Source of the DNA: a virus | Length of the DNA stretch: 64,000 bases | IMG/VR virus record: IMGVR_UViG_3300045988_176357 | Span: 128,001 to 192,000 of that record | Reading direction: 5' to 3' (one strand) | In this document: piece by piece, positions 387-54,886 of the stretch | Layout of the letters: the number at the start of each line of letters is the position of its first letter | Numbering within the stretch: position 1 is the stretch's first letter | The notes under the pieces: generated by a model | The model's database searches: none | Told to the model about the DNA's origin: nothing | The model's input: the letters and a program-made list of their open reading frames with translations, nothing else | Translations under genes and position numbers: made by a program

Positions 387-389
387 TGG

Positions 390-32129: not shown

Positions 32130-32251
32130 CATCTAAGCCGAATCTCCAACAATATCCGTCACACGATCCGGTGTTTGCCTTGAAAAACATGTACAAGCCA
32201 CCGGATGGAACCATTTTTGTCAGCGTAGACTATAGCTTCGAAGCGGAGCCT
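32130..32251 (+). CDS. DNA polymerase exon 2 (PNLQQ-P ... FVSVDYS motif A)
   Basis: SKPNLQQYPSHDPVFALKNMYKPPDGTIFVSVDYSFEAEP. Confidence 0.6.
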
Positions 32252-40134: not shown

Positions 40135-40135
40135 A

Positions 40136-40867: not shown

Positions 40868-41483
40868 GATGTTGTTGCAGAAACTGAAGATCGCGCGCGA
40901 AAGCAGTTCGCGTGTTGTCTTCTGCTATAAGTATGTCTGGTCCCGAATCGACGACTATGTGTCACTGACCAATCTGAGACTGGAAGCAATACAGGTCCGC
41001 GACGGCAAGGTCTTCCATACACAGGCCGCTCCAGTGCTTGATGTGAACCATGGTAAGCCCAGAGTCGCATTCGCAGATTCCGGTATCGTGCAGGTCACCT
41101 CAGGACCCCGATCGAACATTGTCTTGAGAGAACGTCTGCTGCACGCCAACGAGACAGCAGCTCCGGTTCCCTTTTGTGGAACCAGGGAAATTACAGAAAG
41201 CAGCGATGAGAAGGATCTTCAGGTAGTCTATGACTTCCTGACATCCGCAGCCTTTCCTGGCGTGGATATGCGCATGCCGCAGTTGTTCCGGATCACGAAG
41301 AACCCTGAAAGGCTGCGCCTGAACATCACACCTGACTTGCTGCAGGCTCTTGATCTGGATCCCGGAACACCCAGTAAGGAGATACAGGATGCGTTCCTGA
41401 ACAAACTGCCTTCCATTTCAGCGCAGACATCCGAAGGATACGTGTTGCCGTTCAACGTGTGCCGCATGTGTTTCACATGCTGA
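40860..41483 (+). CDS. Hypothetical protein
   Basis: ATGcTTGA overlap with upstream stop. Confidence 0.4.
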   Translation: MLEMLLQKLKIARESSSRVVFCYKYVWSRIDDYVSLTNLRLEAIQVRDGKVFHTQAAPVLDVNHGKPRVAFADSGIVQVTSGPRSNIVLRERLLHANETAAPVPFCGTREITESSDEKDLQVVYDFLTSAAFPGVDMRMPQLFRITKNPERLRLNITPDLLQALDLDPGTPSKEIQDAFLNKLPSISAQTSEGYVLPFNVCRMCFTC

Positions 41484-41494
41484 CCAGCACACAA

Positions 41495-43065
41495 AGGACT
41501 CCTTGGCGCGTGAGCGCCATTGAACAAGAAAGTGAATTGCTGGAACACCTTAACGGGTCATGCCGAAGGCAATCAGCAGCCGAGCTTATGGATGCCCAGA
41601 CCGGGCGCCGTGAGAAGGTTCATCGACTATCCCGGAAGGGAGTACCCGAGCAGCCATGTGACCGGCAGGTCACGAAAGCAAGGGGAAGCACTCTGGCTCA
41701 GGAATGAGTCAATGATATAGTCAGTGCGCTTATGGAAACATAAGGAGTGGTCAGGAGTGACAACCTGAAACCTGCTACTGGGCGGCAACCGGTAGTGAAC
41801 AGAACCATGGTCTCAAAATAGCAACATTATTTTGACGTTTTGATTTTCATAAAGGTGATGTATATTATCTGTATACAATAAGGAGCGCCATGTACAGAGC
41901 CCATAAGATACGCATAGATTGCACAAAAGAGCAGCACAGTCTGTTAATGCAGACTGCAGGCTGCGCTCGTTATGCGTACAACTGGGGACTCGAGAAGTGG
42001 GGCAAGCAGTACGAAGCCTGGAAGGCTGATAGCAGCTTGGAGGAACCCAACTGGGTTAACATATCCAGACAGTGGACACAAGAGAAACCTGAATGGGCAA
42101 ACAAGACAGCACGCAGTGCTGTTACCTGCTCACTGCGTAATCTCGGCACCGCCTTCAAGAACTTCTCAAGGCGCAAAGCAAAGTACCCGAAGAGGCATAA
42201 GAGGTCTCAAGGAATCTCCTTCCAGCTTGGAAACGATACCTGCAGTATCGAAGGCAACCGCATCAGGCTGCCTATCATAGACTACGTAAAGCTCCGTGAG
42301 ACTCCACGATTCCAAGGCAAGATAACAGGCTACACAGTGCAGCTCATCGCTTCCCACTGGTACGTGACAGTCGCCTTCGACTGTCCAGACGTCCCCAAAG
42401 AAGCTCCAGAGTCCGTCGTCGGTATCGACGTAGGACTCCAGCACCCGGCTGTAGCCTCCGATGGAACAGTACTCCAGCTCCCTCTTGAGAAACTACAGAA
42501 GCTCGAAGCCAAACGGCGCAGAGCTCAGCGAGCCCTTTCAAGGAGCAAACGCAATTCCAATGCGCGAGAGCGCAAGCGTGATAGACTCCAACGTATACAG
42601 CAGAGGATCACCAACATCCGACAGGATGCAGTTCACAAGTTTACGACTGCAGTGTGCAAAAACCACGCCACTGTAGTCACCGAAGATCTGGACATAAACG
42701 AGCTCAAAGACAAGGCCCCCGCACGTTCAGTGCGCAGAGCCTACAACAGCTCCCTTATGGGACTCATTTTGTTCCAGATCTCGTACAAGGCGGTGCACCA
42801 CGTAAAGGCACCCAAGTTCTTCCCGAGCACCAAGAGATGCTCAACTTGTGGACACATTAAGGAGGCCATGCCTCCGCAAATCAGAACATACCATTGCGAC
42901 CACTGCGGAGCCCATCTCGACAGAGATGAGAACGCAGCTCGCAACTTGATGTTGCAACCGTGGGTCACACGGTAAGAGGCGCGGTGATGGTACAGGCAGC
43001 GTCAGCTGCAGGTACCAGATGATCCGCGAAGACAGTCCGGTGCAACGCCGGATGAGATCATGACA
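41495..43065 (+). mobile_element. IStron C: group I intron (41495-~41830) + tnpB family 2 + 3' tail ...gatgagatcatgaca
   Basis: 5' module shared with D. Ribozyme core shared with pol intron 1 and the nrdD intron. Begins 9 nt after a TGA stop. Confidence 0.7.
41890..42975 (+). CDS. tnpB: TnpB family 2 (361 aa), intact
   Basis: MYRAHKIRIDCTKEQH...; C-term CSTCGH...YHCDHCGAHLDRDENAARNL. Confidence 0.8.
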   Translation: MYRAHKIRIDCTKEQHSLLMQTAGCARYAYNWGLEKWGKQYEAWKADSSLEEPNWVNISRQWTQEKPEWANKTARSAVTCSLRNLGTAFKNFSRRKAKYPKRHKRSQGISFQLGNDTCSIEGNRIRLPIIDYVKLRETPRFQGKITGYTVQLIASHWYVTVAFDCPDVPKEAPESVVGIDVGLQHPAVASDGTVLQLPLEKLQKLEAKRRRAQRALSRSKRNSNARERKRDRLQRIQQRITNIRQDAVHKFTTAVCKNHATVVTEDLDINELKDKAPARSVRRAYNSSLMGLILFQISYKAVHHVKAPKFFPSTKRCSTCGHIKEAMPPQIRTYHCDHCGAHLDRDENAARNLMLQPWVTR

Positions 43066-43198
43066 GTGACTGGGTATATGCAGGCGGCATGATCGCTGCA
43101 AGTATAACAGGCATCGGCAAGCATAAGCCTAAGGTACTGTACACCAGAGGTATGGACTTCTTCCGTAACTGGTGCGCCGCAAAACAGTGGAGTATCCA

Positions 43199-43813
43199 AT
43201 GCTGCTGACAGAGTTGTTCGATACATGGGGAACCAAGCCTCTGCTGATGACGACTGCGACCAACGGCTTGACACCCGGCAAAGACAAGCTGCTTGGGGTC
43301 TGTGTCAAGGACCCTGAGTTCAGCTCAGGTGACAGGCTGCTGCTCAACTACACAACAGGCGTAGAACTTCAGCAGTCGTCGAAGTTTCATGGCATCAGTC
43401 AGCAGGACATGCAGAGCGCAGGCTTGCAGGAAGCCCAGTTCAAAGACGAGTTGGACAAGCTGCTATCAGAGAACAGCGTCGCGGTACTCACTTATAATGT
43501 ACCTTTCCAGAGCAGCTTCTTAGGCGAATGTCTTCCGGAACTGGAAAGCTTGCCCCTCTATGACCTGACGATCATCGAGAAGGCAATCAGAAACGCCTAT
43601 GCCTTCGACACTGAAGAGCTGGCGACGTTCAGCTCTTTCTACGCTGCCTGCTGCCACGCGGCTATGCCTGTACCTCTGGCTACACTGTGCAGGAATCTGA
43701 AGATGACTCGACAGCCTCCGCCAGGACAGCTTCCAATGGAACGGATGCTGGACGTTTTGCAAGCGCTTTACAACGTAGCTTGCCTTGAAGATATTTCTGT
43801 GCTTCCGAGTTGA
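43199..43813 (+). CDS. Hypothetical protein
   Basis: Preceded by a coupled 41-codon ORF (43079-43204) that lies directly after the IStron C 3' end. Confidence 0.4.
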   Translation: MLLTELFDTWGTKPLLMTTATNGLTPGKDKLLGVCVKDPEFSSGDRLLLNYTTGVELQQSSKFHGISQQDMQSAGLQEAQFKDELDKLLSENSVAVLTYNVPFQSSFLGECLPELESLPLYDLTIIEKAIRNAYAFDTEELATFSSFYAACCHAAMPVPLATLCRNLKMTRQPPPGQLPMERMLDVLQALYNVACLEDISVLPS

Positions 43814-44412
43814 AGCTGGGAGTGACGAATCCTGTACCCAAAGCAGTCATCTATATCTGCACCTGGGTACAGGGCTTAATGACAGGTGTGCAGGTCTAAT
43901 CGATTTGCAGCATGCTGTCCTGTTTGTCAAAATTAACCCACAGGAATGTCTATCCCACCGGACAATACAGAAGTACGAATCCCTAGCAGGCATCAAGCAA
44001 CAGTGATTTGTCCGTGGCCTGATCAGCCGGTTTGACAAATTTGGTTTGAACCTACACGATGCAGCCGGACTTGGAAACTGTGCAGTTAGTCTGTGGTGCA
44101 GGTGTCACATAGTTGACCGATAACTGTACCATAGTCTAAGAGACAGAGGATACCTGCTATTCGGGATACAGAGGGTATGAAGCTATCATCCCTTTAGTCG
44201 TTACTTCCTGCTTCTGTACGTGCGCAGCCTTATACTTGCTCAAGTCTATGCCGGATGAGACTGCGCCATCTTTAATTGAATACAATTTATGATACTACAT
44301 AGGAGCTCCTATTGTGTTGGATACATCTATCAGACCTCCGGATAAATGGAGGGCAGCAGCAATACCAAAGAAAGACGGATCGTTCAAAATATACTACATA
44401 TTAGGTATACGT
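43814..44412 (+). ncRNA. Candidate structured non-coding RNA region (~600 nt, no ORF) upstream of the IStron D / reverse transcriptase locus
   Basis: Perfect 10-bp inverted repeat cctgtaccca...tgggtacagg at 43829-43871. gcatgc and caaatttg palindromes. No ORF longer than 60 codons on either strand. Confidence 0.35.
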
Positions 44413-45983
44413 AAAGGACGCCTTGGCGCGTGAGCGCCATTGAACAAGAAAGTGAATTGCTGGGACACCTTAACGGGTAATGCCGAAGGCAATCAGCAGC
44501 CGAGCTTATGGATGCCCAGACCGGGCGCCATGAGAAGGTTCATCGACTATCCCATATGGGAGTACCCGAGCAGCCTGGCTGCGACAGCAGCGAAAGCAAG
44601 GGGAAGCACTCTGGCTCAGGAATGAGTCAATGATATAGTCAGTGCGCTTATGGAAACATAAGGAGTGGTCAGGAGTGACAACCTGAAACCTGCTACTGGG
44701 CGGCAACCGGTAGTGAACAGAACCATGGTCTCAAAATAGCAACATTATTTTGACGTTTTGATTTTCATAAAGGTGATGTATATTATCTGTATACAATAAG
44801 GAGCGCCATGTACAGAGCCCATAAGATACGCATAGATTGCACAAAAGAGCAGCACAGTCTGTTAATGCAGACTGCAGGCTGCGCTCGTTATGCGTACAAT
44901 TGGGGTCTCGAGAGGTGGGGCAAGATGTACGAAGCCTGGAAGGCTGACAACAGCTTGGAGAAACCCAACTGGAAAAACATATCCAGACAGTGGACACAAG
45001 AGAAACCTGAATGGGCGAACAAGACGACACGCAGTGCTGTCACTTGCTCACTAAGCAATCTCGGTACTGCCTTCAAGAACTTCATAAGGCGCAAAGCAAA
45101 GTACCCGAAGAAGCACAAGAGGTCCCAAGGAATCTCATTCCAGCTTGGAAACGATACCTGCAGTATCGAAGGCAACCGCATCAGGCTGCCTATCATAGAC
45201 TACGTAAAGCTCAGAGAGCTTCCGCGCTTCCAAGGCAAAATCACAGGCTACACAGTTCAGTACATAGCTTCCCACTGGTACGTGATAGTCGCCTTCGACT
45301 GTCCAGACGTCCCCAAAGAAGCGCCAGAGTCCGTCGTCGGTATCGACGTAGGACTCCAGCAACCAGCTGTAGCCTCAGATGGAACCAAGCTAGAGCTACC
45401 CATAGAGAAGCTCCAGAAGCTCGAAGCCAAACGACGCAGAGCTCAGCGAGCCCTTAGCAGGAGCAAGAGGAATTCCAATGCGCGAGAGCGCAAACGGGCC
45501 AAGCTTCAACGTATACAACAGAAGATCATCAACATCCGTCAGGATGCAGTTCACAAGTTTACGACTGCAGTGTGCAAAAACCACGCAACTGTAGTCACCG
45601 AAGATCTGAACATAAACGAGCTCAAAGACAAGGCCCCCGCACGTTCAGTGCGCAGAGCCTACAACAGCTCCCTTATGGGACTCATTTTGTTCCAGATCTC
45701 GTACAAGGCGGTGCACCACGTAAAGGCACCCAAGTTCTTCCCGAGCACCAAGAGATGCTCAACTTGTGGACACATTAAGGAGGCCATGCCTCCGCAAATC
45801 AGAACATACCATTGCGACCACTGCGGAGCCCATCTCGACAGAGATGAGAACGCAGCTCGCAACTTAATGTTGCAACCGTGGGTCACACGGTAAGATGCGC
45901 GGTGATGGTGCTTGTGACATTCGTCACGAGCTCCAGACGATCCGCGAAGACAATCCGGTGCAACGCCGGATGAGATCATGACA
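44413..45983 (+). mobile_element. IStron D: group I intron + tnpB family 2 + 3' tail
   Basis: ~95% identical to IStron C throughout. Inserted between the non-coding region and the reverse-transcriptase gene. Confidence 0.7.
44808..45893 (+). CDS. tnpB: TnpB family 2 (361 aa), intact
   Basis: Near-identical to 41890-42975. Confidence 0.8.
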   Translation: MYRAHKIRIDCTKEQHSLLMQTAGCARYAYNWGLERWGKMYEAWKADNSLEKPNWKNISRQWTQEKPEWANKTTRSAVTCSLSNLGTAFKNFIRRKAKYPKKHKRSQGISFQLGNDTCSIEGNRIRLPIIDYVKLRELPRFQGKITGYTVQYIASHWYVIVAFDCPDVPKEAPESVVGIDVGLQQPAVASDGTKLELPIEKLQKLEAKRRRAQRALSRSKRNSNARERKRAKLQRIQQKIINIRQDAVHKFTTAVCKNHATVVTEDLNINELKDKAPARSVRRAYNSSLMGLILFQISYKAVHHVKAPKFFPSTKRCSTCGHIKEAMPPQIRTYHCDHCGAHLDRDENAARNLMLQPWVTR

Positions 45984-45994
45984 GAAGGTACCTG

Positions 45995-46843
45995 TTGATA
46001 CCTAACGACGAACTGAAACAAAGACAAAGAGAAATCCTCGACTACCTGTACAAGGCGCATCTGAGAGTGCACGAGGCTGCTGTCGGCTTCATGCCGAACA
46101 AGTGTACTCTCAACGGCTGCTTGCAGCATGCTGCCGATGCACAGGTAATTATCAACCTTGATGTACATGATTTCTTCCCCAGCTTTCCTGTAGATAAAGT
46201 CAGGTCAGTGTTGACAGCCCAGCTAGGCGCGGCAGTTGCAGACTACATTGTCGATATAGCAACTTTTAAAGGTAAGCATAGACAGCAGTTGCCTCAAGGT
46301 GCGCCGACTAGCCCGTATCTTACCAACATTGCACTTTACAAGTTCGATTGCAATATGGCGGCAAATGCGAAACGCAGAGGATTCACGTATACGCGATATG
46401 CGGATGACATCACATTGGCGAGCAGCAGCGAGATGCGTGTCAACTACATCAAGACTCTGATTCACGGAACTGAAAGAAGGTTGCGTGCGCTCGGTCTTAC
46501 GCTGTCCAGGAAGAAAACAAATGTCATATTCAGGAACAGTCCGCGTGTTCCGAGACGCATAACAGGGGTAACTGTTCGTAAGGATGGATTCGGATTCAAT
46601 GCACCTATCGGCTTGCGCAAGCAGGCTCGGGCAATGATACACAACCTGTACACAGCACTTAAGAGCGGTGTGCCTGCACAGGAACTTGTACCTGAATATC
46701 GCAGTGCAATGGGTACTGTGCAGTATTGCGACTTTATTCGCAGTGCCAGTATTGTTCCTGAATGTGCAACAGCCGACCCGGCTATAAAAACACATGAACT
46801 CGAATATGTAAAGGGGGTCTTCCGTGCCTATAGACATTATTGA
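45995..46843 (+). CDS. Compact reverse transcriptase (282 aa), retron-like
   Basis: HEAAVGFMPNKCT (motif 1), IINLDVHDFFPSF (motif 2), QGAPTSPYLTNIAL (motif 4), YTRYADDITL (motif 5, YADD), LGLTLSRKKT (motif 7), RRITGVTV (retron-type VTG). Confidence 0.7.
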   Translation: MIPNDELKQRQREILDYLYKAHLRVHEAAVGFMPNKCTLNGCLQHAADAQVIINLDVHDFFPSFPVDKVRSVLTAQLGAAVADYIVDIATFKGKHRQQLPQGAPTSPYLTNIALYKFDCNMAANAKRRGFTYTRYADDITLASSSEMRVNYIKTLIHGTERRLRALGLTLSRKKTNVIFRNSPRVPRRITGVTVRKDGFGFNAPIGLRKQARAMIHNLYTALKSGVPAQELVPEYRSAMGTVQYCDFIRSASIVPECATADPAIKTHELEYVKGVFRAYRHY

Positions 46844-47744
46844 TGGCAATACATCACAATCAGAAATACGCGTTGGCGAAATCTTCAAAGAGTATGGCAA
46901 TGTAGCTATAAACTTTAATGTCAGCGGCTACCGGACTATGTCGCTTGACGAGTTCAGGAAGGACGTGCTGCCGTCTTTACAGCCAGCAAAGTGCAGCCAG
47001 GCTATGTCGTATTATGTAATACGCGACTTGTCGCACAAAACCTGCTATTGTCTTCTTCCTGACTGTGTCGAAGAATTCCGTGTCTCATCCTGGTATGAGA
47101 TCACAACAGACAAGGTGAGAGAAAAGCTCCTGCAGGAAGCCGGACCAAGTGCAGAGACGGAAATTGTCTTTGACTTGCCTGTGCCTTTGCTCAAGTATCG
47201 GTACAATGAGACCTCATGGACCGCGATCGTAAAGATCCCGCATACTAAATTCATGTACAGGTCGACATTGCTGGCAGAATGCATTGGCGACGGCATTCTC
47301 ATCAACTTGCCTCCGTGTATCTTCAAAGTCAAAGCCAACAACAATGACGTAGTCCAGCAAGTCGCAGTATATGTCATTAAAGCAGACAGTGTTGTTTTTG
47401 ACAACATCAAACTGGCACATTTGCCTTTACCGAACATATACAACGATGGCAGCGTGTGCATGGGCAGCACACGCATTGAGGATCAGGCTAGCATTAAGTC
47501 AAAGGGGCAGTTGGTGATGGCTGTATGGGATTTGTTCATCAACTCTAACTGGAACTTGGATCTGCTGACATCAAGTATATTGCCGGACAACTTGATCGAC
47601 GTGTATGAGTCATTGCCAGTACATGCAGTAGATACAGGGTGCAGCGCCGGACGTGTTTTGTCCTTGCTGCAGTTGCTGGATTGTCTGCACGACGATACCG
47701 CTTACCTTAATTTGAACTGGGCAGGTCTATATGTTCACGTCTGA
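46824..47744 (+). CDS. Hypothetical protein coupled to the reverse transcriptase (candidate effector)
   Basis: 20-nt overlap with the reverse-transcriptase gene. No motif recognised. Confidence 0.45.
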   Translation: MPIDIIDGNTSQSEIRVGEIFKEYGNVAINFNVSGYRTMSLDEFRKDVLPSLQPAKCSQAMSYYVIRDLSHKTCYCLLPDCVEEFRVSSWYEITTDKVREKLLQEAGPSAETEIVFDLPVPLLKYRYNETSWTAIVKIPHTKFMYRSTLLAECIGDGILINLPPCIFKVKANNNDVVQQVAVYVIKADSVVFDNIKLAHLPLPNIYNDGSVCMGSTRIEDQASIKSKGQLVMAVWDLFINSNWNLDLLTSSILPDNLIDVYESLPVHAVDTGCSAGRVLSLLQLLDCLHDDTAYLNLNWAGLYVHV

Positions 47745-47985
47745 TCTGTTTGCACGCGCTCCCGAAGCTGCGTTTAGGCAAAGGGCAATGAAGCCGATCA
47801 GACAGCGCCCACTTAAGTACATCATCCTGTCCGGTACAGAGATTGATGGAACCATGAGCGGTACCTTGATACGTAGCTTAGTCGTGCTCCAATTACGCTC
47901 GAAAAGATCAAAGGACGTTATGCGTGCTGTGCTGGAAGTACCAGTCAACGATGACGGCCTTAACATTAAAACACTTGAAAACTGA
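47731..47985 (+). CDS. Hypothetical small protein
   Basis: Coupled ORF. Confidence 0.35.
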   Translation: MFTSDLFARAPEAAFRQRAMKPIRQRPLKYIILSGTEIDGTMSGTLIRSLVVLQLRSKRSKDVMRAVLEVPVNDDGLNIKTLEN

Positions 47986-47996
47986 AAGGAAAAACG

Positions 47997-48413
47997 ATGG
48001 TAAAAATCTACACTAAAGGGCACGATACTGTGCATCATCCTTCGCATTATGCAACACAGGCACTCCCATGTCACATAGAGTGTCAGGATATCAGGCGGCA
48101 TTTACCGCAGGCGGTTGCGGACGCTTTCAAGTATGTATGGCGTTCCGGCTCAAAGGGCACACCTAAAGATGCAGAGACAGACATCAGGAAAGCCGTCTGG
48201 TATCTTGACGATTTCTTTGAGCACTTTACAGTCAGTCAGTTCGACTTCACAACAGCAAAAGCTGTATTCGATCTGGTTGCCCTGGTATCACAGGAGACAT
48301 GGCGAGCAGAGGCATTGACATACCTTGTACATGGCAAAGTCAATGAGGCACGTGAAGTTCTTGTGAAATATCTTGATGAGAAGGAGAAAGTTTATGCGCA
48401 GCAAAGTGTTTGA
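47997..48413 (+). CDS. Hypothetical protein (possible divergent E2-like: HPS...C)
   Basis: HHPSHYATQALPC near the N-terminus. Very tentative. Confidence 0.3.
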   Translation: MVKIYTKGHDTVHHPSHYATQALPCHIECQDIRRHLPQAVADAFKYVWRSGSKGTPKDAETDIRKAVWYLDDFFEHFTVSQFDFTTAKAVFDLVALVSQETWRAEALTYLVHGKVNEAREVLVKYLDEKEKVYAQQSV

Positions 48414-49314
48414 AACCGGCGGGTACATTTACATCGACAGCCCCAACGCAAAGGGCTGGCATCAATGCGAACCGGAAGAGTTCTTTGCCAACCAGCGTCC
48501 ATACGATACAGAGCTCAACAAGGATCTGCTGAAGTGGACAGGCGCCAAAGTCGGAAAGGATCTGCTGCTGCAGGTAGCGGCACTGGCAAACTGTTTTCCC
48601 AGAATGGAAATCATGGTCTGCCTGTATTACAGCAGCGCAGAACAGAAGTGGCTGGCGAATGTACCTAAGCAGAAGGGTTCCGGTGCGCACGTCAAGTACG
48701 ATGATGAGGATTTTGCGCCGCCGAAAGGCTACGAGTTCCTCGGCACCATACACACTCATCCTGAAATGTCGGCTTTCTGGTCATGTGTCGATCGCAATGA
48801 TCAGAACCGTAAGAACGGGTTGCATCTTGTACTCGGTCTGAGAAACGGAAAGATCAACGAGGTCCTGTGCAGCCTGTTCTACAACGGTAAGCAGTACGAT
48901 CAGCCTGATGCGTATGAGCTGCCTGCAGCGGATGACCCGCTGCCTGAAGTCAATGAGGACTGGAAAGCGAAAGTGACCATACAGGAGCTTGCAGAACCTA
49001 AACTGAATATCATAAAGGACACTGACGCATTTCTCGAACCCAGATGGTTGCCTGATGCAGATGGCAGGTATAAGTTCAGTTACGACAGTGACAGCATCAG
49101 TCCATGCCTGTCAGACACAGCCAGTTACTTCGATGTTCTGCACGCTGCAGTCAAGCTCAATGAGCAACAGATGTATGATCTTTGTGGCCAACTGCTCGAG
49201 ATACTTGGTCAACAAGAACTGGCCGACGAAGTTGATGTAGCAGCCTTTGATGCAGCTCTTGGAGATGAAGATGATACATGTTGTGAGGCACGGTATGATC
49301 AGGAATCCACTTAA
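48394..49314 (+). CDS. JAB/JAMM (MPN+) metallopeptidase
   Basis: HTHPEMSAFWSCVD matches HxHx7Sx2D exactly. Confidence 0.7.
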   Translation: MRSKVFETGGYIYIDSPNAKGWHQCEPEEFFANQRPYDTELNKDLLKWTGAKVGKDLLLQVAALANCFPRMEIMVCLYYSSAEQKWLANVPKQKGSGAHVKYDDEDFAPPKGYEFLGTIHTHPEMSAFWSCVDRNDQNRKNGLHLVLGLRNGKINEVLCSLFYNGKQYDQPDAYELPAADDPLPEVNEDWKAKVTIQELAEPKLNIIKDTDAFLEPRWLPDADGRYKFSYDSDSISPCLSDTASYFDVLHAAVKLNEQQMYDLCGQLLEILGQQELADEVDVAAFDAALGDEDDTCCEARYDQEST

Positions 49315-50200
49315 TGTCGTAGTGATTGGGTGCGGAGGTATCGGCGGCTATCTTTGTCGACTGCTTCCACAGACAATGGCATGCCTGTATGTCGATTCCC
49401 TGGGTGCCGACCAGGCTCAGCAGCTCATGCAGTCGGAAGGGATGTCTGATGACGTGCGAGCTTCAGGCGCAGTCTTCAGCTCCCTTACCCTTATAGATGG
49501 CGACACGTTCTCAGGACATAACGCACTTAGGCAGGAAGGAACGGCTGGCAGCAAGCTGGCAACTGTCATGTCTATGATACGCAGCACAGACGCCTTCAGT
49601 ACCTGGCTCAACGCCACGGAACTTGTCGGGTATAACAACTACATCACGCCCAGGAACATACATAAAATCTTAGATCCCTTGTATAACGTCGTCATATTCC
49701 TGTGTGTCGACAACCATAAAACAAGGTACGAAGTGACCAGATGGGCAGTGGATCAGAAAACACAGAATATCCTGATCATTAACGGCGGCAATAAGAAAAC
49801 AGCCGGGAATGTCACGGTATTCCAGAATAACGCAGGCAAGCTTCTCGATCCCCCTATCTACAAGCTGTATCCTGAAGTGACGGACAAGTTTGATCGTCGT
49901 CCCGACGAGATAGACTGCGGCTCAGTGTCGGTAACCAACGACCAGACAGCAGTGACCAACAATATGATAGCATCTATAATGCTCGCCATGTTCAGCAAGT
50001 ATGTTCGCACAGGGGGCTTCGACCAGAAAACCAGACATAAAGATGCCAATGGAAACAACATTGTAGTCAGGAAAAATGAAGTCGTAGTCGACTTCGAAAC
50101 CATGACTATGCAATCGTTCGCACATTCACCGGACACAGACAATACGCCTTTGCAGTCGGCACTCGAGGGAGTTCCGGAAGGCGAGACAGAAATCATATAA
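49247..50200 (+). CDS. E1-like ThiF/MoeB-family adenylyltransferase
   Basis: NVVVIGCGGIGGYL Rossmann loop, followed by LIDGDTF. Confidence 0.65.
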   Translation: MMQLLEMKMIHVVRHGMIRNPLNVVVIGCGGIGGYLCRLLPQTMACLYVDSLGADQAQQLMQSEGMSDDVRASGAVFSSLTLIDGDTFSGHNALRQEGTAGSKLATVMSMIRSTDAFSTWLNATELVGYNNYITPRNIHKILDPLYNVVIFLCVDNHKTRYEVTRWAVDQKTQNILIINGGNKKTAGNVTVFQNNAGKLLDPPIYKLYPEVTDKFDRRPDEIDCGSVSVTNDQTAVTNNMIASIMLAMFSKYVRTGGFDQKTRHKDANGNNIVVRKNEVVVDFETMTMQSFAHSPDTDNTPLQSALEGVPEGETEII

Positions 50201-50214
50201 GAAAGGAAACACAA

Positions 50215-50535
50215 ATGCACAAACTCACAATCAACGGATCCACCTCCACCCAGATCAAACTCGGACGTTACACCACAGTGCTCAATCTCAGGAAGGCCCT
50301 GCAGGAAGTAGGGTACAACGTTAAAGGCAAGGCGTGCCTTATCAAGCAGACGCACAGCAGCATGCCCGCCAGAGCCAGAGACAATTACGTCATCCAGTAC
50401 GGAGACGAGATCGAGTTTACCAACGTGCCGCCCAAGATCGGAGCCAGAAAAGAGCGTGGTTCAGGAACCACTGTCACTGTAGGACGCAACACATTCACGT
50501 TCAATGACGGCGTTCTCATCATCTGCAGCCTGTGA
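50215..50535 (+). CDS. Small beta-grasp (ThiS/MoaD/ubiquitin-like) protein with C-terminal extension
   Basis: MHKLTINGSTSTQIKLG...YVIQYGDEIEF resembles the ThiS ...DGDEIEI pattern. Extension PPKIGARKERGSG... follows. Confidence 0.4.
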   Translation: MHKLTINGSTSTQIKLGRYTTVLNLRKALQEVGYNVKGKACLIKQTHSSMPARARDNYVIQYGDEIEFTNVPPKIGARKERGSGTTVTVGRNTFTFNDGVLIICSL

Positions 50536-50573
50536 TTACAACTAACAAACTATAATACGAAAGGAAAACACAT

Positions 50574-51995
50574 ATGATCATCATTGCAACTGCTAACAAC
50601 AACGAAAACCTCAACAACATCAGGATCAACCTTGACAACAGCATCTCTCTCGGTCAGCTTCTCGACAGAGATGATGTTCGTGCATTCTTCCACAATGCCA
50701 GCAAAGAGAGCATTCTGGCAAGCCTCGTTACCATTGACGGACTCGATGCCTATGCCATTACGAATGCGAGCTCTCTGACTGTTGACAATACTATGGAATT
50801 GCAGTTCGACATCTACGGCAGAGCACCGGAGACCGCACATACAGCTGCTGCTTCCGCCGGGTTCGTCACAATTACTCAGGGCGGAGGTTTCAACAGCAAG
50901 CGTGTGCCTATTGTGTCAGATACGACAAGAGCAGGGGATGTGCTTACACAGGATGTGGCCAATTTCTTCGCCACAACTGTGGATACTCTGCACAATATGC
51001 GTATTCTTATCAATGATGTCGAGGCGGAAACAACAGCTGTACTGCACGACGGCGACGCGATTACTCTCATGTCCAGAAAGTGCGGCGACAAGGGGGCATG
51101 TGTACCCATTCTTGCAATTACGCATACTGACGGATCTGTGACGAGACATGCAGTCCTTGCAGGTTCCAGGCTCAAGGAATGTCTCTCCAGGATTGTTCCC
51201 GGTGCGGTAGTGCTGTCTATCGACGGTACAGCGGTACCCATGAACTTCTATGATGCTATTGTAGAAGGCAAGCTGGTTGACAAGGACATGCAAGTGACTG
51301 TCAACGATAACAAGAAGTGCACGGTGCATTGCTGCGCCAATGACGGCAGTGATCCGGTCGACATGATCCTGGATGATGGCAGTTCTGTGATGGACCTGCT
51401 TACCAAAGTACAGGACAAGTTTGAAAACGCTGAGATCTATGTCTTTGACGTGGACGGCGATCTGGTACCGGAAGCTTTCGCCGATACCATCCTGACTAAT
51501 ACACTTGTCGTTGATGGTATGTATGTAACTTTCAGTTCGCTGCGTGAGATGCCTGTTGTACATGGCTATATGAACATGGAAGACGACAGCGAAGAAGATG
51601 AAGAAGATGAAGAAGATGGTGCTGAGTATGCAGATGACGAGCAGGTACTTGAAGGTCCTGCAGAAGATGCTGTAGGCGCCGTAACAGTCGTTCTTCCCGG
51701 GGGCTTCAGCACCTCTCAGGTCGCAATCAGGAACAATGTGACGAAGCTTCGTGATGTTGTTCTCAGCGCACGTATTCTGAATATGTCTGCGATGAACGAA
51801 AGCCAGGCGCAGACTCTCGTATACACAGTGAACGATGTCGAGAGCAATCTCGATGATACTCTGAGCATCGGTGATGTGATCCGGATGTCTGCACGTAAAG
51901 CAGGCGACAAAGGAAGTGCATTGAAAGTTACTGTCAAGCTGATGGATGCCACCGAATTCCGGTATGACGTGGAGCCGGGGACAAGGCTCGAGGCT
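50574..51995 (+). CDS. Multi-domain protein with repeated beta-grasp-like units, exon 1
   Basis: Repeated blocks ...VNDVE..T..LHDGDAITLMSRKCGDKGA / ...VNDVESNLDDTLSIGDVIRMSARKAGDKGSA and ~70-aa ...DLLTKVQDKFENAEIYVFDVDGDLVPE...VVDGMYVTF units. Acidic EDEEDEED linker. Confidence 0.5.
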
Positions 51996-53661
51996 TAACA
52001 ACCTCCATTGAGGAGTGATCCTCAATGCAAAGAAAGTGAATTGCTAATAGATCCCAAGAGTCTCACGACGCCTTTAACAAGGATCGAAAGAGAAAACAAA
52101 GAAGTGAGGATACCGCAAGGCGACAGTAAGCCTAAACGGGAGTGACAACGGACGTTTAGCAGCCGAGCCTTGTATCGAGAGATACCCGGTACAAGGAAGG
52201 TTCATCGACTAGGACATCGTGTCCGTACCCGAGCAGCCGTGTGCGTGATAACGCACGAAAGCAAGGGGAAGTACTCTGGCTCAGGAATGAGTCAATGAAA
52301 TAGTCAGTGCTTCATGGAAACATGAAGAGTGGTCAGGAGTGACAACCTGAAACCTGCTACTGGGCGGCAACCGGTAGTGAACAGAACCATGGACTTCAAT
52401 TGTATTGTTATTTCGTCAAGTTTTATTTACCGTTTTGATCTTTACAGAACGGAGTTATAATACTCTCAGTAACTGGAGAACACTTTGGAACCAAGAGCAC
52501 ACATAATCAGATTGTACCCGACAAGGGCACAGGAGAAGCAGCTGAAGAATACCATCGGCTGCGCTCGTTATGCGTACAATTGGGCTCTCGAGAAGTGGCG
52601 GGAGATGTATGCCGCACATGATAAGGACAAGGCTTCTCCAAAGCCAAGTGCCTTGAAGCTGACCAAGTTATGGACTCAGGAGAAGCCTGACTGGGCACAT
52701 GAGACAGCTTATTGCAGCCAGCAAAGAGCGATACATAACGTAGGCGTCGCTTATCAGCGCCTTTAGAGGGGCTTATCGGCGAAGCCGAAGTTCCATAAGA
52801 AGGGCGGCAAGGAGACGTTTTACGTTGATAATGCGAAGGTCGCATGGTACGGCAATAGAATCCAGTTGCCCGACATCGGACGTGTCCGCGTAGCGGAGCA
52901 GATCCGTTTCGAGGGCAAGGTAATGGGCTACACAGTGTCCCATTATGCCGGACAGTGGCATCTCATAGCTCAGGTCAACGCCGAAGGTGATGTGAAACCT
53001 TATTGTGCCAATCCAGAGTCCGTCGTCGGTATCGACGTAGGACTTCTGAATCCTGCTGTAGCCTCCGATGGAACCGTCTTGGAGCTCCCTATTGAGAAGC
53101 TTCAGAAGCTCGACGCCAAACTCAGGCGACAGCAGAAGGCACTCTCCCGTTCACAAAGAAACTCCAGAAACCACGCGAAGCTTCTCATAAAGAAGCAGCG
53201 TACACAGAATAAGATCAACAACATCCGTAAGGATGCAGTACATAAGTTCACGACCACCATTGCCAAGAGCCACGGCAAGGTAGTCATCGAAGATCTGGAC
53301 ATCCAAGGAATGAAGGATAAAGCTCCTTCAAGAGCCGTCAGAAGGGCGCATAACAGTTCCCTCATGGGCGCCATCCATCGGCAGCTCTCCTACAAAGTCC
53401 AGCACCTGATCAAGGTGAATCGCTTCTTCCCGTCTTCCAAGACCTGCAGCAACTGCGGGCACATAAGGAGCGCCCTTGATTTAAGTGAACGTACATATCA
53501 TTGCGACCACTGCGGAGCGGTCATCGACCGCGACCTCAATGCCGCAATCAACTTGATGAAATCAGGGCTGGTCGAGCCCGAAGCGTCTGTGGAGCAAGTC
53601 GGTACCGACTTGCGTCGAAGCAGAAAGTACAAACGGATGCAATGTCCGTAAGTTCATGACA
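51996..53661 (+). mobile_element. IStron E (copy of IStron A, ~97% identical) splitting the multi-beta-grasp gene
   Basis: Same 5' flank gaggct|taacaacctcc and same 3' end catgaca|g. Confidence 0.8.
52485..53651 (+). pseudogene. tnpB: tnpB with the same in-frame TAG (52765) as copy A
   Basis: N-terminal 93 aa identical to 2658-2939. Downstream part ~98% identical. Stop replaced by CGA, so a 15-aa longer tail. Confidence 0.75.
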
Positions 53662-54069
53662 GATTTCCTTATGTCTAATTATCCGGACTCCATTGTACTT
53701 GGCATCAATGGTGTCAGGGTAGATCCTGAGTTCTATGTGCCTGTTCTTGATGGCTTCACCCTGAACAGAGATACTGTGCTGATTGTGAAGGCCAGCCCGA
53801 AGATGACAGTGCACTGTTACTCCGGACATGTCGAGCCAAGCCTCTACTGCACATCTTATAAGATGAATTACGACAGTACCGTACAGGACTTGCTTAAACT
53901 GGTACAGAAGGACTTCGGCAATGAAGACATACGCGTGACGCAGATTGATCTCAAGGACGTACCGGAAGACTTTATGCAGGTTATCCTGGCAGGCACGTTT
54001 ATTACAGAGCAAATGGTTGTTACTTTCAATGAGCTCAATGGAGCGGGAAAGGCACGCAAGACACTGTAA
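53662..54069 (+). CDS. Multi-beta-grasp protein exon 2
   Basis: DFLMSNYPDSIVLGINGVRVDPEFYVPVLDG...VQDLLKLVQKDFGNEDIRVTQIDLKDVPEDF...VTFNELNGAG. Same unit as in exon 1. In frame with exon 1. Confidence 0.55.
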   Translation, partial: DFLMSNYPDSIVLGINGVRVDPEFYVPVLDGFTLNRDTVLIVKASPKMTVHCYSGHVEPSLYCTSYKMNYDSTVQDLLKLVQKDFGNEDIRVTQIDLKDVPEDFMQVILAGTFITEQMVVTFNELNGAGKARKTL

Positions 54070-54095
54070 AGCAAGGAGATCAGGCGCCCTGAGAT

Positions 54096-54632
54096 ATGGG
54101 CGCCTTTACCATGGAAACATATACGCCTAAAACATTCACATTTGATATTCCGATAAGGGCAAAGGCAGTACAGAGCACACGCTTTGCCAGAGGCCACTCT
54201 TTTGTCGACGCAAAGACAAAGAAATGGAAAAAGGCTGTCGGAGACTGTATCAAGTTACACGCTCCAGATGTACCCAGCGAGCTTCCTTTTGAGGTCGTAG
54301 AGGCGGTATACACATTCAAGCTGCCTCAGGCACTGACAAAGAAAGCTCGTGCTCGCATTGAAGGTGCATGGGCCAGAGGAGAAGATGTCGCGTACATCAG
54401 CACACCGGACCTCGATTCCAACATAAACAAGGGTCTGTCTGACCTGCTCACCGACATGGGCGTGTGGGCAGATGACAGGCGCATGTGGCGTGTGGCAAAG
54501 GACGCTGTCATCAAGAAAGTGTACGGAAAGGTGGACAGCATCCGCATCACAGTAAGAGAGACGCCATTTGTTCTTCTGAGCAACGGCAAGACAGCCTTGG
54601 AACACTTCTATGGACATCCTGGAACTGCGTAA
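54096..54632 (+). CDS. rusA: RusA-family Holliday junction resolvase
   Basis: ISTPDLDSNINKGLSDLLTDMGVWADDRRM matches the RusA D-x-D-N...K...D-x-L...DD core. Confidence 0.6.
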   Translation: MGAFTMETYTPKTFTFDIPIRAKAVQSTRFARGHSFVDAKTKKWKKAVGDCIKLHAPDVPSELPFEVVEAVYTFKLPQALTKKARARIEGAWARGEDVAYISTPDLDSNINKGLSDLLTDMGVWADDRRMWRVAKDAVIKKVYGKVDSIRITVRETPFVLLSNGKTALEHFYGHPGTA

Positions 54633-54886
54633 ACGGCTGCACGAAATGCTCGACCCGTTGTGGCAGACAGGTCAGTACAGACGCGATGATCTGTATCAGG
54701 AGCTCAGCAGCCTGCTGAAAAAGGATGCACATGTGTCCAAGATGACTGAGCAGGAGATATCAAAGTGTGCGGAATATCTTGCTGCCAGAACAGCTGTAGC
54801 GTATCCATGCTACAGATGCGTCCACCATATAACAGACATCAATAACATACCAGTGTGCGCTAAGCACATAGAAAGGGGGAATCGTT

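What the first reader, a model, noticed from the sequence alone, without database searches (positions are those of the whole stretch)
43814..54069. Phage-borne retron-like reverse transcriptase next to an E1/JAB/Ubl cluster, pierced by two IStrons
From 43.8 to 54.1 kb the gene order is:
1. a 600-nt ORF-free structured region
2. IStron D
3. a 282-aa reverse transcriptase with full motifs 1-7, YADD and a retron-style VTG motif
4. two coupled unknown ORFs (306 aa and 84 aa) and a 138-aa ORF with an HPS...C motif
5. a JAMM peptidase with an exact HxHx7Sx2D motif
6. a ThiF/E1-like adenylyltransferase
7. a ~100-aa ThiS-like beta-grasp protein carrying a C-terminal extension, which could be processed by the JAB
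8. an ~610-aa protein made of repeated beta-grasp-like units, itself split by IStron E

Reverse-transcriptase-based elements and bacterial Ubl-conjugation modules are each known separately in defence or anti-defence contexts. I do not know of them described together, or inside a lytic-phage replication module.
Basis: partly seen in the sequence, partly recalled or inferred. Interest (0 to 1): 0.85.

Follow-up and report, generated by a model that had tools for sequence, protein, structure and literature searches.

The report
Phage reverse transcriptase wired to ubiquitin-like tagging
An uncultured large phage carries a retron-like reverse transcriptase that is always inherited together with a complete ubiquitin-like protein-tagging kit (E1, E2, trimming peptidase, ubiquitin-like proteins), a pairing I could not find described and which also occurs outside this phage group.

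Summary
The genes are real and at the stated coordinates, with four corrections.

1. IStron D (44385-45984) lies inside the RT gene. It splits motif 1. The spliced RT is 309 aa, and intron-less alleles confirm the junction.
2. The 306-aa ORF is the missing E2 (Pfam Prok-E2_D, invariant Cys212).
3. The 138-aa ORF is a DUF3310 passenger.
4. The "ORF-free" 500 nt holds a conserved antisense gene with 10 in-frame TAG codons, because this phage lineage reads TAG as sense. Its RT-sense strand still folds far better than shuffled sequence in 10 of 10 related phages.

The main result is that the RT and the E2-JAB-E1-Ubl cassette form one unit. All 11 diverged phage relatives keep the same gene order, and where gene calls are available RT and E2 overlap. 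Seven non-phage-clade contigs have the same RT-E2-JAB-E1(-Ubl) order. These RTs form two neighbouring clades of retron-like RTs. The cassette is present in 18 of 20 assessable members and in 0 of 33 other retron-like RT loci.

The Ubl proteins end in ...KG plus 0-5 residues. They match ThiS/MoaD profiles weakly, and the model matches linear poly-ubiquitin.

Best reading: a retron-type RT (plus structured RNA) coupled to a thioester Ubl-conjugation effector. The mechanism is inferred, not shown. I found no description in the searchable literature.

The parts
43632..44300 (-). Conserved antisense gene (about 200-223 codons) with 10 in-frame TAG codons. It is divergent from the RT start and its function is unknown.
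   Evidence: In-frame stops are TAG only: window 10, L004 11, L005 8, L006 12. The ORF is intact in L008, L009 and L013-L018. tblastx is strongest in this frame. There is no Pfam hit.
43814..44313 (+). Structured leader upstream of the RT; candidate RT-associated RNA. It overlaps the antisense gene.
   Evidence: MFE is -170.6 against -141.3 +/- 6 for shuffles, z = -4.9. The + strand gives z of -3.7 to -7.0 in all 10 phage relatives tested, while coding controls give 0 to -2. The alignment consensus structure is weak, -7.8 kcal/mol.
44314..44384 (+). RT exon 1 (GTG start; ends inside motif 1, IPKKDGSL).
   Evidence: Sequence and splice reconstruction. Intron-less alleles L001/L002 and protein P0001 are contiguous across the junction.
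44385..45984 (+). IStron D: group I ribozyme (44385-44663), TnpB (44808-45893), and a 3' end ...CATGACAG.
   Evidence: Rfam RF00028 matches at 43.2 bits, full length. TnpB hits phrog_506 at 3.8e-86. The element is absent from 97%-identical relatives, with exact junction 44384|45985.
45985..46843 (+). RT exon 2 (motifs 1b-7, YADD, thumb). The spliced RT is 309 aa.
   Evidence: RVT_1 3.7e-22; retron_St85_RT 138.6 bits; PADLOC RT_XIII 161 bits.
46824..47744 (+). E2-like conjugating enzyme (Prok-E2_D), catalytic Cys212 in the motif LPNIYNDGSVCMG. It overlaps the RT stop by 20 nt.
   Evidence: PF14460 at 33 bits against a cut-off of 25. Cys212 is invariant in 6 diverged homologues. The same LPN...C(L/M)G motif occurs in L068, L071, L074, L084 and L091.
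47731..47985 (+). 84-aa ORF overlapping the E2 stop. A small ORF sits at this position in most relatives, but its sequence is not conserved.
   Evidence: No family hit.
47997..48413 (+). 138-aa DUF3310 protein: a lineage-specific passenger, not a core member of the module.
   Evidence: PF11753 at 2.7e-4 (below cut-off); phrog_11324 at 2.7e-17. No separate gene is called here in L004, L005 or L008; the longer ORFs at this position in L006 and L009 were not tested for DUF3310.
48373..49314 (+). JAB/JAMM metallopeptidase (HTHPEMSAFWSCVD).
   Evidence: Prok-JAB at 25.3 bits against a cut-off of 25; PRTRC_A at 31.6 bits, below its cut-off.
49247..50200 (+). Single-domain ThiF-type E1 (GCGGIGG, NALRQ, CVDN, invariant Cys224). 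The true start is probably near 49295.
   Evidence: ThiF at 46 bits; PRTRC_ThiF at 41.6 bits, below its cut-off. Alignment A1 gives the invariant residues.
50215..50535 (+). 106-aa candidate Ubl (…YGDEIEFTNVPPKIGARKERGSG plus a 21-aa tail). It is a variable component.
   Evidence: It aligns at 20-24% identity with the KG-ending units of the polyUbl. Similar 121-142-aa proteins follow the E1 in L008 and L013-L016. Structure prediction failed at pLDDT 31.
50574..51993 (+). PolyUbl exon 1: unit 1, units 2-4, an acidic linker, unit 5 and the start of unit 6.
   Evidence: KG-ending units (…SRKCGDKG, …ARKAGDKG). The AF2 model of allele P0125 shows repeated beta-beta-alpha-beta-beta elements. The Foldseek top 50 hits are all ubiquitin-like proteins, mostly linear poly- or di-ubiquitin and ISG15, best E 4e-5.
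51994..53662 (+). IStron E: group I ribozyme plus a broken TnpB (52485-52766 and 52866-53651).
   Evidence: Rfam at 28.1 bits, E 9e-4. It is 99% identical over its first ~300 nt to the copy starting at 2162. The empty site in L001 reads CTCGAGG|ATTTCC.
53663..54069 (+). PolyUbl exon 2: the rest of unit 6 and unit 7. Exact excision gives a 608-aa protein.
   Evidence: Intron-less alleles P0125-P0128 (601-605 aa) read ...GTRLEDFLMS.... The common 441-aa allele instead stops at ...ARKAGDKGK.

Best explanation
The locus is one conserved module of an uncultured large phage that reads TAG as a sense codon. The longest contig carrying a near-identical polyUbl allele is about 198 kb. The module consists of a retron-like reverse transcriptase, preceded by a strongly folding RNA leader, and a complete thioester-type ubiquitin-like conjugation cassette.

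Proposed steps, all inferred:
1. The JAB peptidase trims the Ubl precursors (polyUbl, and possibly the 106-aa protein) after the conserved ...KG motif.
2. The ThiF-type E1 adenylates the exposed glycine.
3. The Ubl passes to Cys212 of the Prok-E2_D enzyme and is conjugated to target proteins.
4. The RT, probably with a cDNA copied from the adjacent structured RNA as in retrons, acts as the sensor, regulator or specificity partner of the cascade.

On this reading the Ubl cascade takes the place of a retron 'effector'. In the phage the module most plausibly serves conflict, against competing phages/mobile elements or against host immunity. This is suggested because the same module also occurs in seven contigs outside the phage clade, whose flanking genes differ from locus to locus.

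Shown here: gene content, catalytic motifs, strict co-inheritance of RT and cassette, and exact IStron insertion sites. Two self-splicing IStrons interrupt the RT and polyUbl genes, so both proteins depend on RNA splicing.
For: Domain assignments and motifs.

Synteny:
- RT-E2-(small ORF)-JAB-E1-Ubl is kept in every phage-clade genome examined: window, L004-L006, L008, L009, L013-L017, and also the separately analysed L010. RT identity goes down to 38%.
- RT and E2 overlap by 11-26 nt in the window and the five relatives with standard-code gene calls (L004-L006, L008, L009); in L013 and L015-L017 about 2 kb separates them.

Independent occurrences of the same gene order: L068 (a contig binned in a Planctomycetaceae metagenome-assembled genome), L071, L073, L074, L084, L091, L119.

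Lineage and association:
- In an NJ tree, module-linked RTs form two adjacent clades.
- The cassette is present in 18 of 20 assessable members and in 0 of 33 other retron-like RT loci with at least 1.5 kb downstream. Fisher p = 3e-12, not corrected for phylogeny.
- Pairwise identities of the RT track those of E1, JAB and E2 (Spearman 0.88, 0.83, 0.76).

Ubl evidence:
- Ubl C-termini are ...[RK]xAGxKG plus 0-5 residues, and the protein ends exactly at G in L006, L017 and L084.
- The Ubl unit profile hits ThiS/MoaD/CysO chains first in the PDB, E 0.025-1.
- The polyUbl model matches tetra-ubiquitin at E 4e-5.

Structured RNA next to the RT:
- z of -3.7 to -7.0 upstream in 10 of 10 phage genomes and -6.7 in L084.
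- z of about -5 to -6 and -3 to -4 in the RT-E2 gaps of L071 and L068.

IStron junctions are confirmed by empty-site alleles.
Against: - No biochemical step is shown.
- The RT scores below every curated retron family cut-off (138.6 against 235).
- No msr/msd with a1/a2 repeats or a conserved consensus structure was found: alifold gives -7.8 kcal/mol, and the conserved blocks are explained by the antisense protein.
- L073 and L074 show no structured RNA in the stretches tested.
- Two RTs inside the linked clades (L070, L090) lack the cassette.
- More distant phage JAB-E1 pairs (L019-L056) have no RT, so the cassette can work without an RT.
- The beta-grasp fold rests on a low-confidence model (pLDDT 44), weak profile hits and a sequence motif. 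The 106-aa model failed.
- Targets and biological role are unknown.
- The position inside the replication module, between the DNA polymerase region and RusA, could instead point to a role in DNA metabolism.
Confidence: 0.55

Rival explanations
1. There are two unrelated accessory systems, a retron-like RT and a PRTRC-like Ubl cassette, that merely sit side by side in a hot spot of the phage replication module.
For: Related JAB-E1 pairs in other viral contigs lack any RT within 8 kb (L019-L056). Most retron-like RTs have other neighbours. Synteny within one phage clade can simply be inherited.
Against: The same gene order recurs in contigs outside the phage clade with differing flanks (L068, L071, L073, L074, L084, L091, L119). 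RT and E2 overlap. Module-linked RTs form their own clades, 18/20 against 0/33. RT and E1/JAB/E2 distances co-vary.
Confidence: 0.15
2. The RT works in phage DNA replication or repair, for example making a primer or cDNA from the structured leader. The Ubl cascade would then modify replication or recombination proteins of the phage or host, rather than serving conflict.
For: In many phage relatives the module lies between the DNA polymerase region and the RusA resolvase, next to helicase, UvsX-like and SbcC-like genes. It appears to be core to this phage clade rather than sporadic.
Against: Compact versions of the module occur in non-phage-like contexts next to toxin-antitoxin, DUF932, PD-(D/E)XK, HEAT and radical-SAM genes. 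Nothing links the Ubl to any replication protein.
Confidence: 0.15
3. The E1/Ubl pair is a sulfur-carrier (ThiS/MoaD-type) or tail-assembly-type beta-grasp system, and the RT is a degenerate group II intron or DGR enzyme.
For: The Ubl unit profile matches ThiS/MoaD/CysO chains, and the E1 matches ThiF/MoeB models weakly.
Against: No thiamine or molybdopterin gene was seen among the neighbouring genes examined, and no tail gene lies nearby. An E2 with a catalytic Cys and a JAB are present, and the Ubls are made as precursors or poly-proteins. Group II maturase scores 59.7 bits against a cut-off of 300. There is no intron RNA domain, TR/VR pair or Avd gene.
Confidence: 0.03
4. The upstream 500 nt is only a protein-coding region (the antisense TAG-containing gene), and its predicted RNA structure has nothing to do with the RT.
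For: The conserved sequence blocks correspond to protein motifs (YPLYP, LLYCPVG, EMTALG). No covarying consensus structure was found. L071, L073 and L074 have no structured upstream region.
Against: The + strand z-scores are -3.7 to -7.0 in 10 of 10 genomes, against 0 to -2 for coding controls. In 9 of 10 the + strand scores stronger than the coding (minus) strand, most clearly in L009 at -7.0 against -1.2. Structured stretches also flank the RT in L084, L071 and L068.
Confidence: 0.35

Closest known systems
Retrons (RT + msr/msd non-coding RNA + effector; types I-XIII)
   Same: The RT's best matches in NCBIfam and PADLOC are all retron RTs (St85, Ec67, RT_XIII, RT_III-A and others). The YADD and VTG-type motifs are present. 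A strongly folding RNA lies next to the RT. There is a fixed set of accessory genes, as in the tripartite retron systems.
   Different: The RT scores below every curated retron cut-off. No msr/msd, a1/a2 repeats or branching G could be identified. The 'effector' is a five- to six-gene Ubl conjugation cascade, which is not among the retron partners I know of (own knowledge) and which I could not find in the literature. The module is core to a phage clade rather than a bacterial defence island.
Prokaryotic Ubl-JAB-E1-E2 operons of Iyer, Burroughs and Aravind 2006 (PMC1779556, Table 1 rows 6d/6e), including the PRTRC cassettes (TIGR03735-03737)
   Same: They contain a separate Prok-E2_D-type E2 with a catalytic Cys, a JAB peptidase, a single-domain ThiF-type E1, a ThiS-like Ubl and sometimes proteins with 2-3 tandem Ubl domains. 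They are mobile.
   Different: All three PRTRC models score far below their cut-offs: 21.6 against 131, 31.6 against 102, and 41.6 against 145. No other PRTRC model matched the ten ORFs of this locus, and a ParB-related partner was not looked for. An RT partner is not mentioned in that work. The poly-Ubl here has 7 units with an acidic linker.
Bil (BilABCD), type II CBASS (Cap2/Cap3) and Bub pathways (PMC11601596, PMC10557695, PMC10097602)
   Same: They follow the same logic: an E1 and E2 conjugate a Ubl (or Ubl-like tail), and a JAB peptidase matures or reverses it. They act in phage-bacterium conflict.
   Different: [quoted passage not shown] Cap2 is an E2-E1 fusion acting on a CD-NTase. Bub uses Ser/Tyr oxyesters and a DUF6527 protease. 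Here the E1 is a single ~300-aa domain, the E2 is family D with Cys, there are no PADLOC hits, the partner is an RT, and the carrier is a phage.
IStrons (group I intron + IS200/605 element; PMC4227781, bioRxiv 10.1101/2023.11.20.567912)
   Same: A group I ribozyme sits at the 5' end, a TnpB ORF follows, and the element ends in G. Insertions lie in-frame within coding genes. There are multiple near-identical copies, and relatives carry empty sites.
   Different: The host is a phage with at least five copies in 64 kb. No TnpA gene lies in these copies. The E-type copies insert after ...GAGG, so the 5' exon ends in G rather than the usual U. Rfam scores are below the gathering threshold.
Phages with TAG reassigned to an amino acid (code 15; bioRxiv 10.1101/2021.08.26.457843, PMC9523058)
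   Same: TAG is almost never a terminator (1 of 57 genes). In-frame TAG is concentrated in a few genes. A relative (L010) is recoded throughout.
   Different: No suppressor tRNA lies in the 64-kb window or in the fetched loci. The TAG-rich genes here are two homing endonucleases and the gene antisense to the RT leader, not structural or lysis genes.

Membership tests
Retron | RT belongs to the retron RT clade | tested here: inconclusive
   The best NCBIfam hit is retron_St85_RT at 138.6 bits, below the cut-off of 235. PADLOC RT_XIII scores 161 bits, and some 25 retron RT models score 100-160. In the NJ tree the phage clade branches outside the sampled retron-like RTs.
Retron | Adjacent msr/msd non-coding RNA with flanking inverted repeats and a priming G | tested here: inconclusive
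   A strongly folding + strand leader is present (z = -4.9; -3.7 to -7.0 in relatives). The consensus structure is weak and no conserved a1/a2 or branch G was found. Rfam finds no family other than group I introns: none in the whole window at gathering scores, and none at E <= 1 in 40000-56000.
Retron | Production of multicopy single-stranded DNA (msDNA) | not testable with these tools
   This needs RT-DNA isolation from cells expressing the module.
Retron | Conserved accessory effector gene(s) co-inherited with the RT | tested here: met
   E2-JAB-E1-Ubl is present in 18 of 20 assessable members of the RT clades and 0 of 33 outside. Identities co-vary.
Group II intron / DGR reverse transcriptase | Maturase-type RT inside intron RNA domains, or an RT with a TR/VR repeat pair and an accessory Avd | tested here: not met
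   group_II_RT_mat scores 59.7 bits against a cut-off of 300. There is no group II intron Rfam hit. No TR/VR-like direct repeat lies near the RT.
Prokaryotic E1-E2-JAB-Ubl conjugation operon (Iyer 2006 type 6d/6e) | ThiF-type E1 with nucleotide-binding and catalytic motifs | tested here: met
   PF00899 scores 46 bits against a cut-off of 28.1. GCGGIGG, N92/R95/Q96, D155 and C224 are invariant.
Prokaryotic E1-E2-JAB-Ubl conjugation operon (Iyer 2006 type 6d/6e) | E2-fold protein with a conserved catalytic cysteine | tested here: met
   PF14460 Prok-E2_D scores 33 bits against a cut-off of 25. Cys212 is invariant and lies in an LPN...C(L/M)G motif shared by 11 homologues. The fold itself was not modelled.
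Prokaryotic E1-E2-JAB-Ubl conjugation operon (Iyer 2006 type 6d/6e) | JAB/JAMM peptidase with HxHx7Sx2D | tested here: met
   HTHPEMSAFWSCVD is present. PF14464 scores 25.3 bits against a cut-off of 25.
Prokaryotic E1-E2-JAB-Ubl conjugation operon (Iyer 2006 type 6d/6e) | Beta-grasp Ubl with a C-terminal glycine available for adenylation | tested here: met
   There is a ...KG motif followed by 0-5 residues in the final or only post-E1 Ubl protein of 15 loci, and it also closes the internal units 2 and 5 of the window polyUbl. Top PDB profile hits are ThiS/MoaD/CysO, E 0.025-1. Foldseek hits on the polyUbl model are all ubiquitin-like, best E 4e-5, but the model's pLDDT is only 44.
PRTRC system (NCBIfam TIGR03735/6/7 equivalogs) | Proteins reach the curated family scores, and the cassette includes a ParB-related partner | tested here: not met
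   Scores are 31.6 against 101.8 (A), 21.6 against 131.45 (B) and 41.6 against 144.75 (ThiF). A ParB-related partner was not specifically looked for; no other PRTRC model matched the ten ORFs scanned.
Bil / type II CBASS / Bub | Tandem-domain BilD-type E1; or a Cap2 E2-E1 fusion with CD-NTase; or Ser/Tyr oxyester enzymes with DUF6527 | tested here: not met
   The E1 is a single ThiF domain of about 300 aa. E2 and E1 are separate genes, each with a conserved Cys. No CD-NTase or DUF6527 was seen. PADLOC gives no hit for E2, JAB, E1 or Ubl. Definitions are taken from PMC11601596.
IStron | Group I intron ribozyme fused to an IS200/605-family element, inserted in a gene and removable by splicing | tested here: met
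   There are full-length RF00028 alignments (43.2 and 28.1 bits, below the gathering score of 50) and TnpB genes. Empty-site alleles restore intact ORFs exactly. Splicing itself is inferred.

The most novel reading that the evidence does not exclude
The RT and the Ubl cascade act on one another directly. One version is that the RT-made cDNA (or the RT-cDNA complex) is the scaffold or the substrate onto which the E2 loads the Ubl. That would make this a nucleic-acid-guided ubiquitin-like tagging system, which phages and other mobile elements would use to mark specific targets. It would be a new mechanistic class for both reverse transcriptases and prokaryotic ubiquitin-like systems.
Probability: 0.12. 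Interest if true: 0.95.

Novelty: new variant of a known kind. Interest (0 to 1): 0.8.

Why it matters
Retron-type reverse transcriptases and bacterial ubiquitin-like conjugation are two of the most active topics in phage-bacterium conflict. So far they have been studied as separate worlds.

Here a distinct RT lineage is co-inherited, and co-diverges, with a full E1-E2-JAB-Ubl cascade. The pairing occurs in a family of large uncultured phages and in unrelated contigs. That predicts a functional coupling between cDNA synthesis and protein tagging.

If confirmed, it would add a new effector class to RT-based systems. It would give the long-orphaned Prok-E2_D/PRTRC-type cascades a testable partner. 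It would also show that phages themselves deploy Ubl conjugation.

The compact versions (L071, about 3.6 kb: RT, E2, a 97-aa ORF, JAB, E1, a 77-aa Ubl) are small enough to clone and test directly.

Tried and rejected
- Megablast of the locus against GenBank phages found no match. tblastn with the E1 found none, and with the RT only hits of 33% identity or less.
- Rfam at gathering scores found nothing.
- AF2 of the 106-aa protein with a 3-row alignment was unusable, pLDDT 31. AF2 of the polyUbl was low-confidence, pLDDT 44, and was used only for domain-level Foldseek.
- A word-indexed search with the E2 returned only 4 close homologues, so distant relatives had to be reached through loci.
- The small ORFs between E2 and JAB show no detectable similarity to each other.
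- RNAalifold on four upstream regions gave no convincing consensus. An attempt to collect more intermediate-divergence phage genomes from IMG/VR added only two, so covariation could not be tested.
- No suppressor tRNA was found in the window or in 16 related loci.
- My first splice model for IStron E (exon ending ...GCTT) was wrong. The empty-site allele corrected it.
- Several literature searches were uninformative.
- Rejected readings: DGR or group II RT, sulfur-carrier pathway, tail-assembly Ubl, and membership of Bil, CBASS or Bub.
- Not used: the search of protein representatives, because it gives no genomic context and so cannot speak to the linkage question.

Full report
WHAT IS THERE

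The window is a + strand replication module of a phage. PHROGs identifies SbcC-like, helicase, DnaB/primase-like, UvsX-like, DNA polymerase and RusA genes. The GenBank phage collection holds no nucleotide match to this locus, no E1 homologue and no RT above about 33% identity. IMG/VR contigs of 95 kb and 9 kb are 93-97% identical to the window. Near-identical proteins sit on metagenome contigs of up to about 198 kb.

Profile searches give the following:
- RT: RVT_1, 3.7e-22.
- 306-aa ORF: Prok-E2_D, 33 bits against a cut-off of 25.
- 138-aa ORF: DUF3310, with 'nucleotide kinase' PHROG families.
- 313-aa ORF: Prok-JAB, 25.3 bits against a cut-off of 25, with an exact HxHx7Sx2D motif.
- 317-aa ORF: ThiF, 46 bits.

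The three PRTRC equivalog models are the nearest NCBIfam families for E2, JAB and E1, but all score far below their cut-offs.

THE TWO ISTRONS

Rfam finds full-length group I intron alignments at 41442, 44385 and 51983. They score 46.5, 43.2 and 28.1 bits, just under the gathering score of 50. Each is followed by a TnpB gene. Further copies lie elsewhere in the window.

Relatives L001 and L002 lack the elements. The window joins exactly at 44384|45985, where the empty site reads GGATCGTT|AAGGTA. It also joins at 51993|53663, where the empty site reads CTCGAGG|ATTTCC.

IStron D therefore sits inside the RT gene and splits motif 1 (IPKKDGSL|RYLLIP). The spliced RT is 309 aa and matches the contiguous protein P0001 at 98%. 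IStron E splits a poly-Ubl gene, which is 608 aa if excision is exact. Its own TnpB frame is broken. E-type copies insert after ...GAGG, so the 5' exon ends in G rather than the usual U. The RNA splice site there is not established.

THE 'ORF-FREE STRUCTURED REGION'

Gene callers placed a 183-207-aa minus-strand gene here in three relatives. Its homologue is open in L008, L009 and L013-L018. In the window, L004, L005 and L006 it carries only TAG as an in-frame stop (10, 11, 8 and 12 TAG). tblastx is strongest in that frame, 121 bits against 45.

Several observations show that TAG is read as sense in this lineage:
- TAG terminates only 1 of 57 genes in the window.
- Two homing-endonuclease genes at 32570-33268 and 33511-34524 carry 15 and 20 in-frame TAG.
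- The relative L010 has 4-18 in-frame TAG in every module gene.

This matches code-15-type recoding as described in bioRxiv 10.1101/2021.08.26.457843 and PMC9523058. No suppressor tRNA lies in the sequence available.

So the region is coding, on the other strand.
- The RT-sense strand folds with z = -4.9 in the window.
- It folds with z of -3.7 to -7.0 in all ten phage relatives tested. In 9 of 10 this is stronger than on the coding strand. Coding controls give 0 to -2.
- A consensus structure could not be established, because the conserved blocks are the protein motifs.

A retron-style msr/msd therefore remains unproven.

IS THE RT LINKED TO THE UBL GENES?

This is the key question, and the answer is yes.

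Within the phage clade:
- The RT belongs to a family of about 310-aa proteins (P0001-P0035, 38-98% identity).
- Every context retrieved has RT-E2-(small ORF)-JAB-E1-Ubl in this order. These are L004-L010 and, through the E1, L013-L018.
- RT and E2 overlap in the window and the five relatives with standard-code gene calls; in L013 and L015-L017 about 2 kb lies between them. Downstream flanks sometimes differ.

Outside the phage clade:
- A scan of one genome per bacterial/archaeal species found L068, a contig binned in a Planctomycetaceae metagenome-assembled genome, carrying RT, Prok-E2_D, JAB and ThiF in the same order.
- The RT closest to it, P0085, sits in a 7-kb contig (L071) with RT, E2_D, a 97-aa ORF, JAB, ThiF and a 77-aa ThiS-like protein.
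- A metagenome scan with these RTs returned 80 retron-like RT loci. Five more carry the cassette: L073, L074, L084, L091 and L119.

Association:
- In an NJ tree the cassette-linked RTs form the phage clade plus one neighbouring clade.
- The cassette is present in 18 of 20 assessable members and in 0 of 33 assessable loci outside. Fisher p = 3e-12, not phylogeny-corrected.
- RT pairwise identity tracks that of E1, JAB and E2 (rho 0.88, 0.83, 0.76).

The converse does not hold. More distant phage JAB-E1 pairs (L019-L056) have no RT nearby.

THE UBL COMPONENTS

The protein(s) after the E1 vary from 77 to 608 aa. They always finish with a unit ending ...[RK]xAGxKG followed by 0-5 residues. The protein ends exactly at G in L006, L017 and L084.

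In the window the motif occurs after units 2 and 5 (SRKCGDKG, ARKAGDKG). The commonest allele of this gene (441 aa) stops one residue after the second motif.

Fold evidence:
- A profile of 16 such units hits ThiS/MoaD/CysO chains first in the PDB, aligned at their C-terminal Gly. The hits are individually weak, E 0.025-1.
- The AF2 model of the intron-less allele is poor (pLDDT 44) but shows repeated beta-beta-alpha-beta-beta units.
- All of its top 50 Foldseek PDB hits are ubiquitin-like proteins, mostly linear poly- or di-ubiquitin and ISG15, with FAT10, NEDD8 and related Ubls, best E 4e-5.
- The 106-aa protein aligns weakly with the KG units. It is present only in some relatives, and its model failed.

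The catalytic residues are conserved: E2 Cys212 and E1 Cys224 are invariant.

HOW IT PROBABLY WORKS (INFERENCE)

The proposed order of events is:
1. JAB trims the precursors after KG.
2. E1 adenylates the exposed glycine.
3. E2 Cys212 carries the thioester and conjugates the Ubl to targets.
4. The retron-like RT, with an adjacent structured RNA, regulates or directs the cascade, in the way retron RT-DNA controls its effector.

Structured RNA lies upstream of the RT in the phages and in L084. In L071 and L068 it lies in the RT-E2 gap, with z of about -5 to -6 and -3 to -4.

The module occurs in very different genomic surroundings: next to a toxin-antitoxin pair and DUF932, a PD-(D/E)XK nuclease, and HEAT and radical-SAM genes. 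This favours a self-contained conflict system over a replication function. Its fixed place in the phage replication module keeps the replication rival alive.

COMPARISON WITH WHAT IS KNOWN

The cassette is a distant relative of the Ubl-JAB-E1-E2 operons predicted in 2006 (PMC1779556, rows 6d/6e) and of PRTRC. It is not Bil, CBASS type II or Bub, as those are defined in PMC11601596; PADLOC gives no hits. The RT is retron-like but below all family cut-offs.

No paper in the searchable library links a reverse transcriptase with such a cassette. This is absence of evidence within that library only.

VERDICT

The mechanism is unproven.

Noticed in passing
window 32570-33268, 33511-34524, 43632-44300(-); whole window: TAG behaves as a sense codon. 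Only 1 of 57 + strand genes ends in TAG (29 TGA, 27 TAA). Three genes carry 10-20 in-frame TAG and no other in-frame stops: a GIY-YIG homing endonuclease, an HNH homing endonuclease, and the gene antisense to the RT leader. No suppressor tRNA lies in the window.
   Followed up: partly
L010 (logan:SRR17418339_17269) 295-6047: This relative has the same RT-E2-JAB-E1-polyUbl module, but every gene contains 4-18 in-frame TAG codons and terminates in TAA or TGA. It is a fully TAG-recoded member of the clade.
   Followed up: yes
window ~2160-3800, ~10767-12400, ~31770-32100, ~32236-32560, 41450-43066, 63748-end: Further group I introns and IStrons lie outside the finding: at least eight intron-type insertions in 64 kb. 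IStron C (41450-43066) is also missing from the 97%-identical relative. One intron carries the TAG-rich GIY-YIG gene.
   Followed up: partly
window 51993/51994 and copies at ~2160 and ~10767: E-type IStrons are inserted after ...GAGG/GGAG, so the 5' exon ends in G instead of the U expected at a group I 5' splice site. A 4-bp helix GAGG/CCUC (GGAG/CUCC in copy B) co-varies between copies.
   Followed up: partly
window 15917-18415: The 832-aa helicase/primase-like protein has an insert (residues ~202-566). It is 45-47% identical to segments in unrelated Klebsiella, E. coli and Vibrio phages, one of them annotated 'similar to intein'. It is probably an intein.
   Followed up: no
window 6731-39945 (8 copies); 20957-21556 and 36041-36460: A 96-nt motif is repeated in eight genes; I read it as encoding CPDWAQYAAVDxDG. 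There are long runs of 15-nt tandem repeats. Four paralogous gene sets lie at 20.6-21.9, 24.7-25.7, 35.7-36.9 and 59.5-60.5 kb.
   Followed up: no
window 55132/55133 versus L001 17542-19219: The close relative carries an extra ~1.7-kb insertion here that shares IStron-like sequence with IStron E and that the window lacks. The elements are therefore currently mobile within this phage population.
   Followed up: no
L002 and proteins P0129-P0224: Most sampled alleles of the polyUbl gene are about 441 aa and end ...ARKAGDKGK. They lack units 6-7 of the window's 608-aa version. The number of Ubl units is polymorphic.
   Followed up: partly
L179 484-1197 and L198 521-1210: A weak E1-like HMM hit (19-23 bits) lies directly upstream of a different retron-like RT in two viral contigs. 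This could be another RT/E1 arrangement or could be noise.
   Followed up: no
L074 158-1519 and 5646-6449; L072 1-7996 and 9335-10705: HEAT/Arm-repeat and radical-SAM genes neighbour retron-like RTs in two loci. One of these loci (L074) also carries the Ubl cassette.
   Followed up: no
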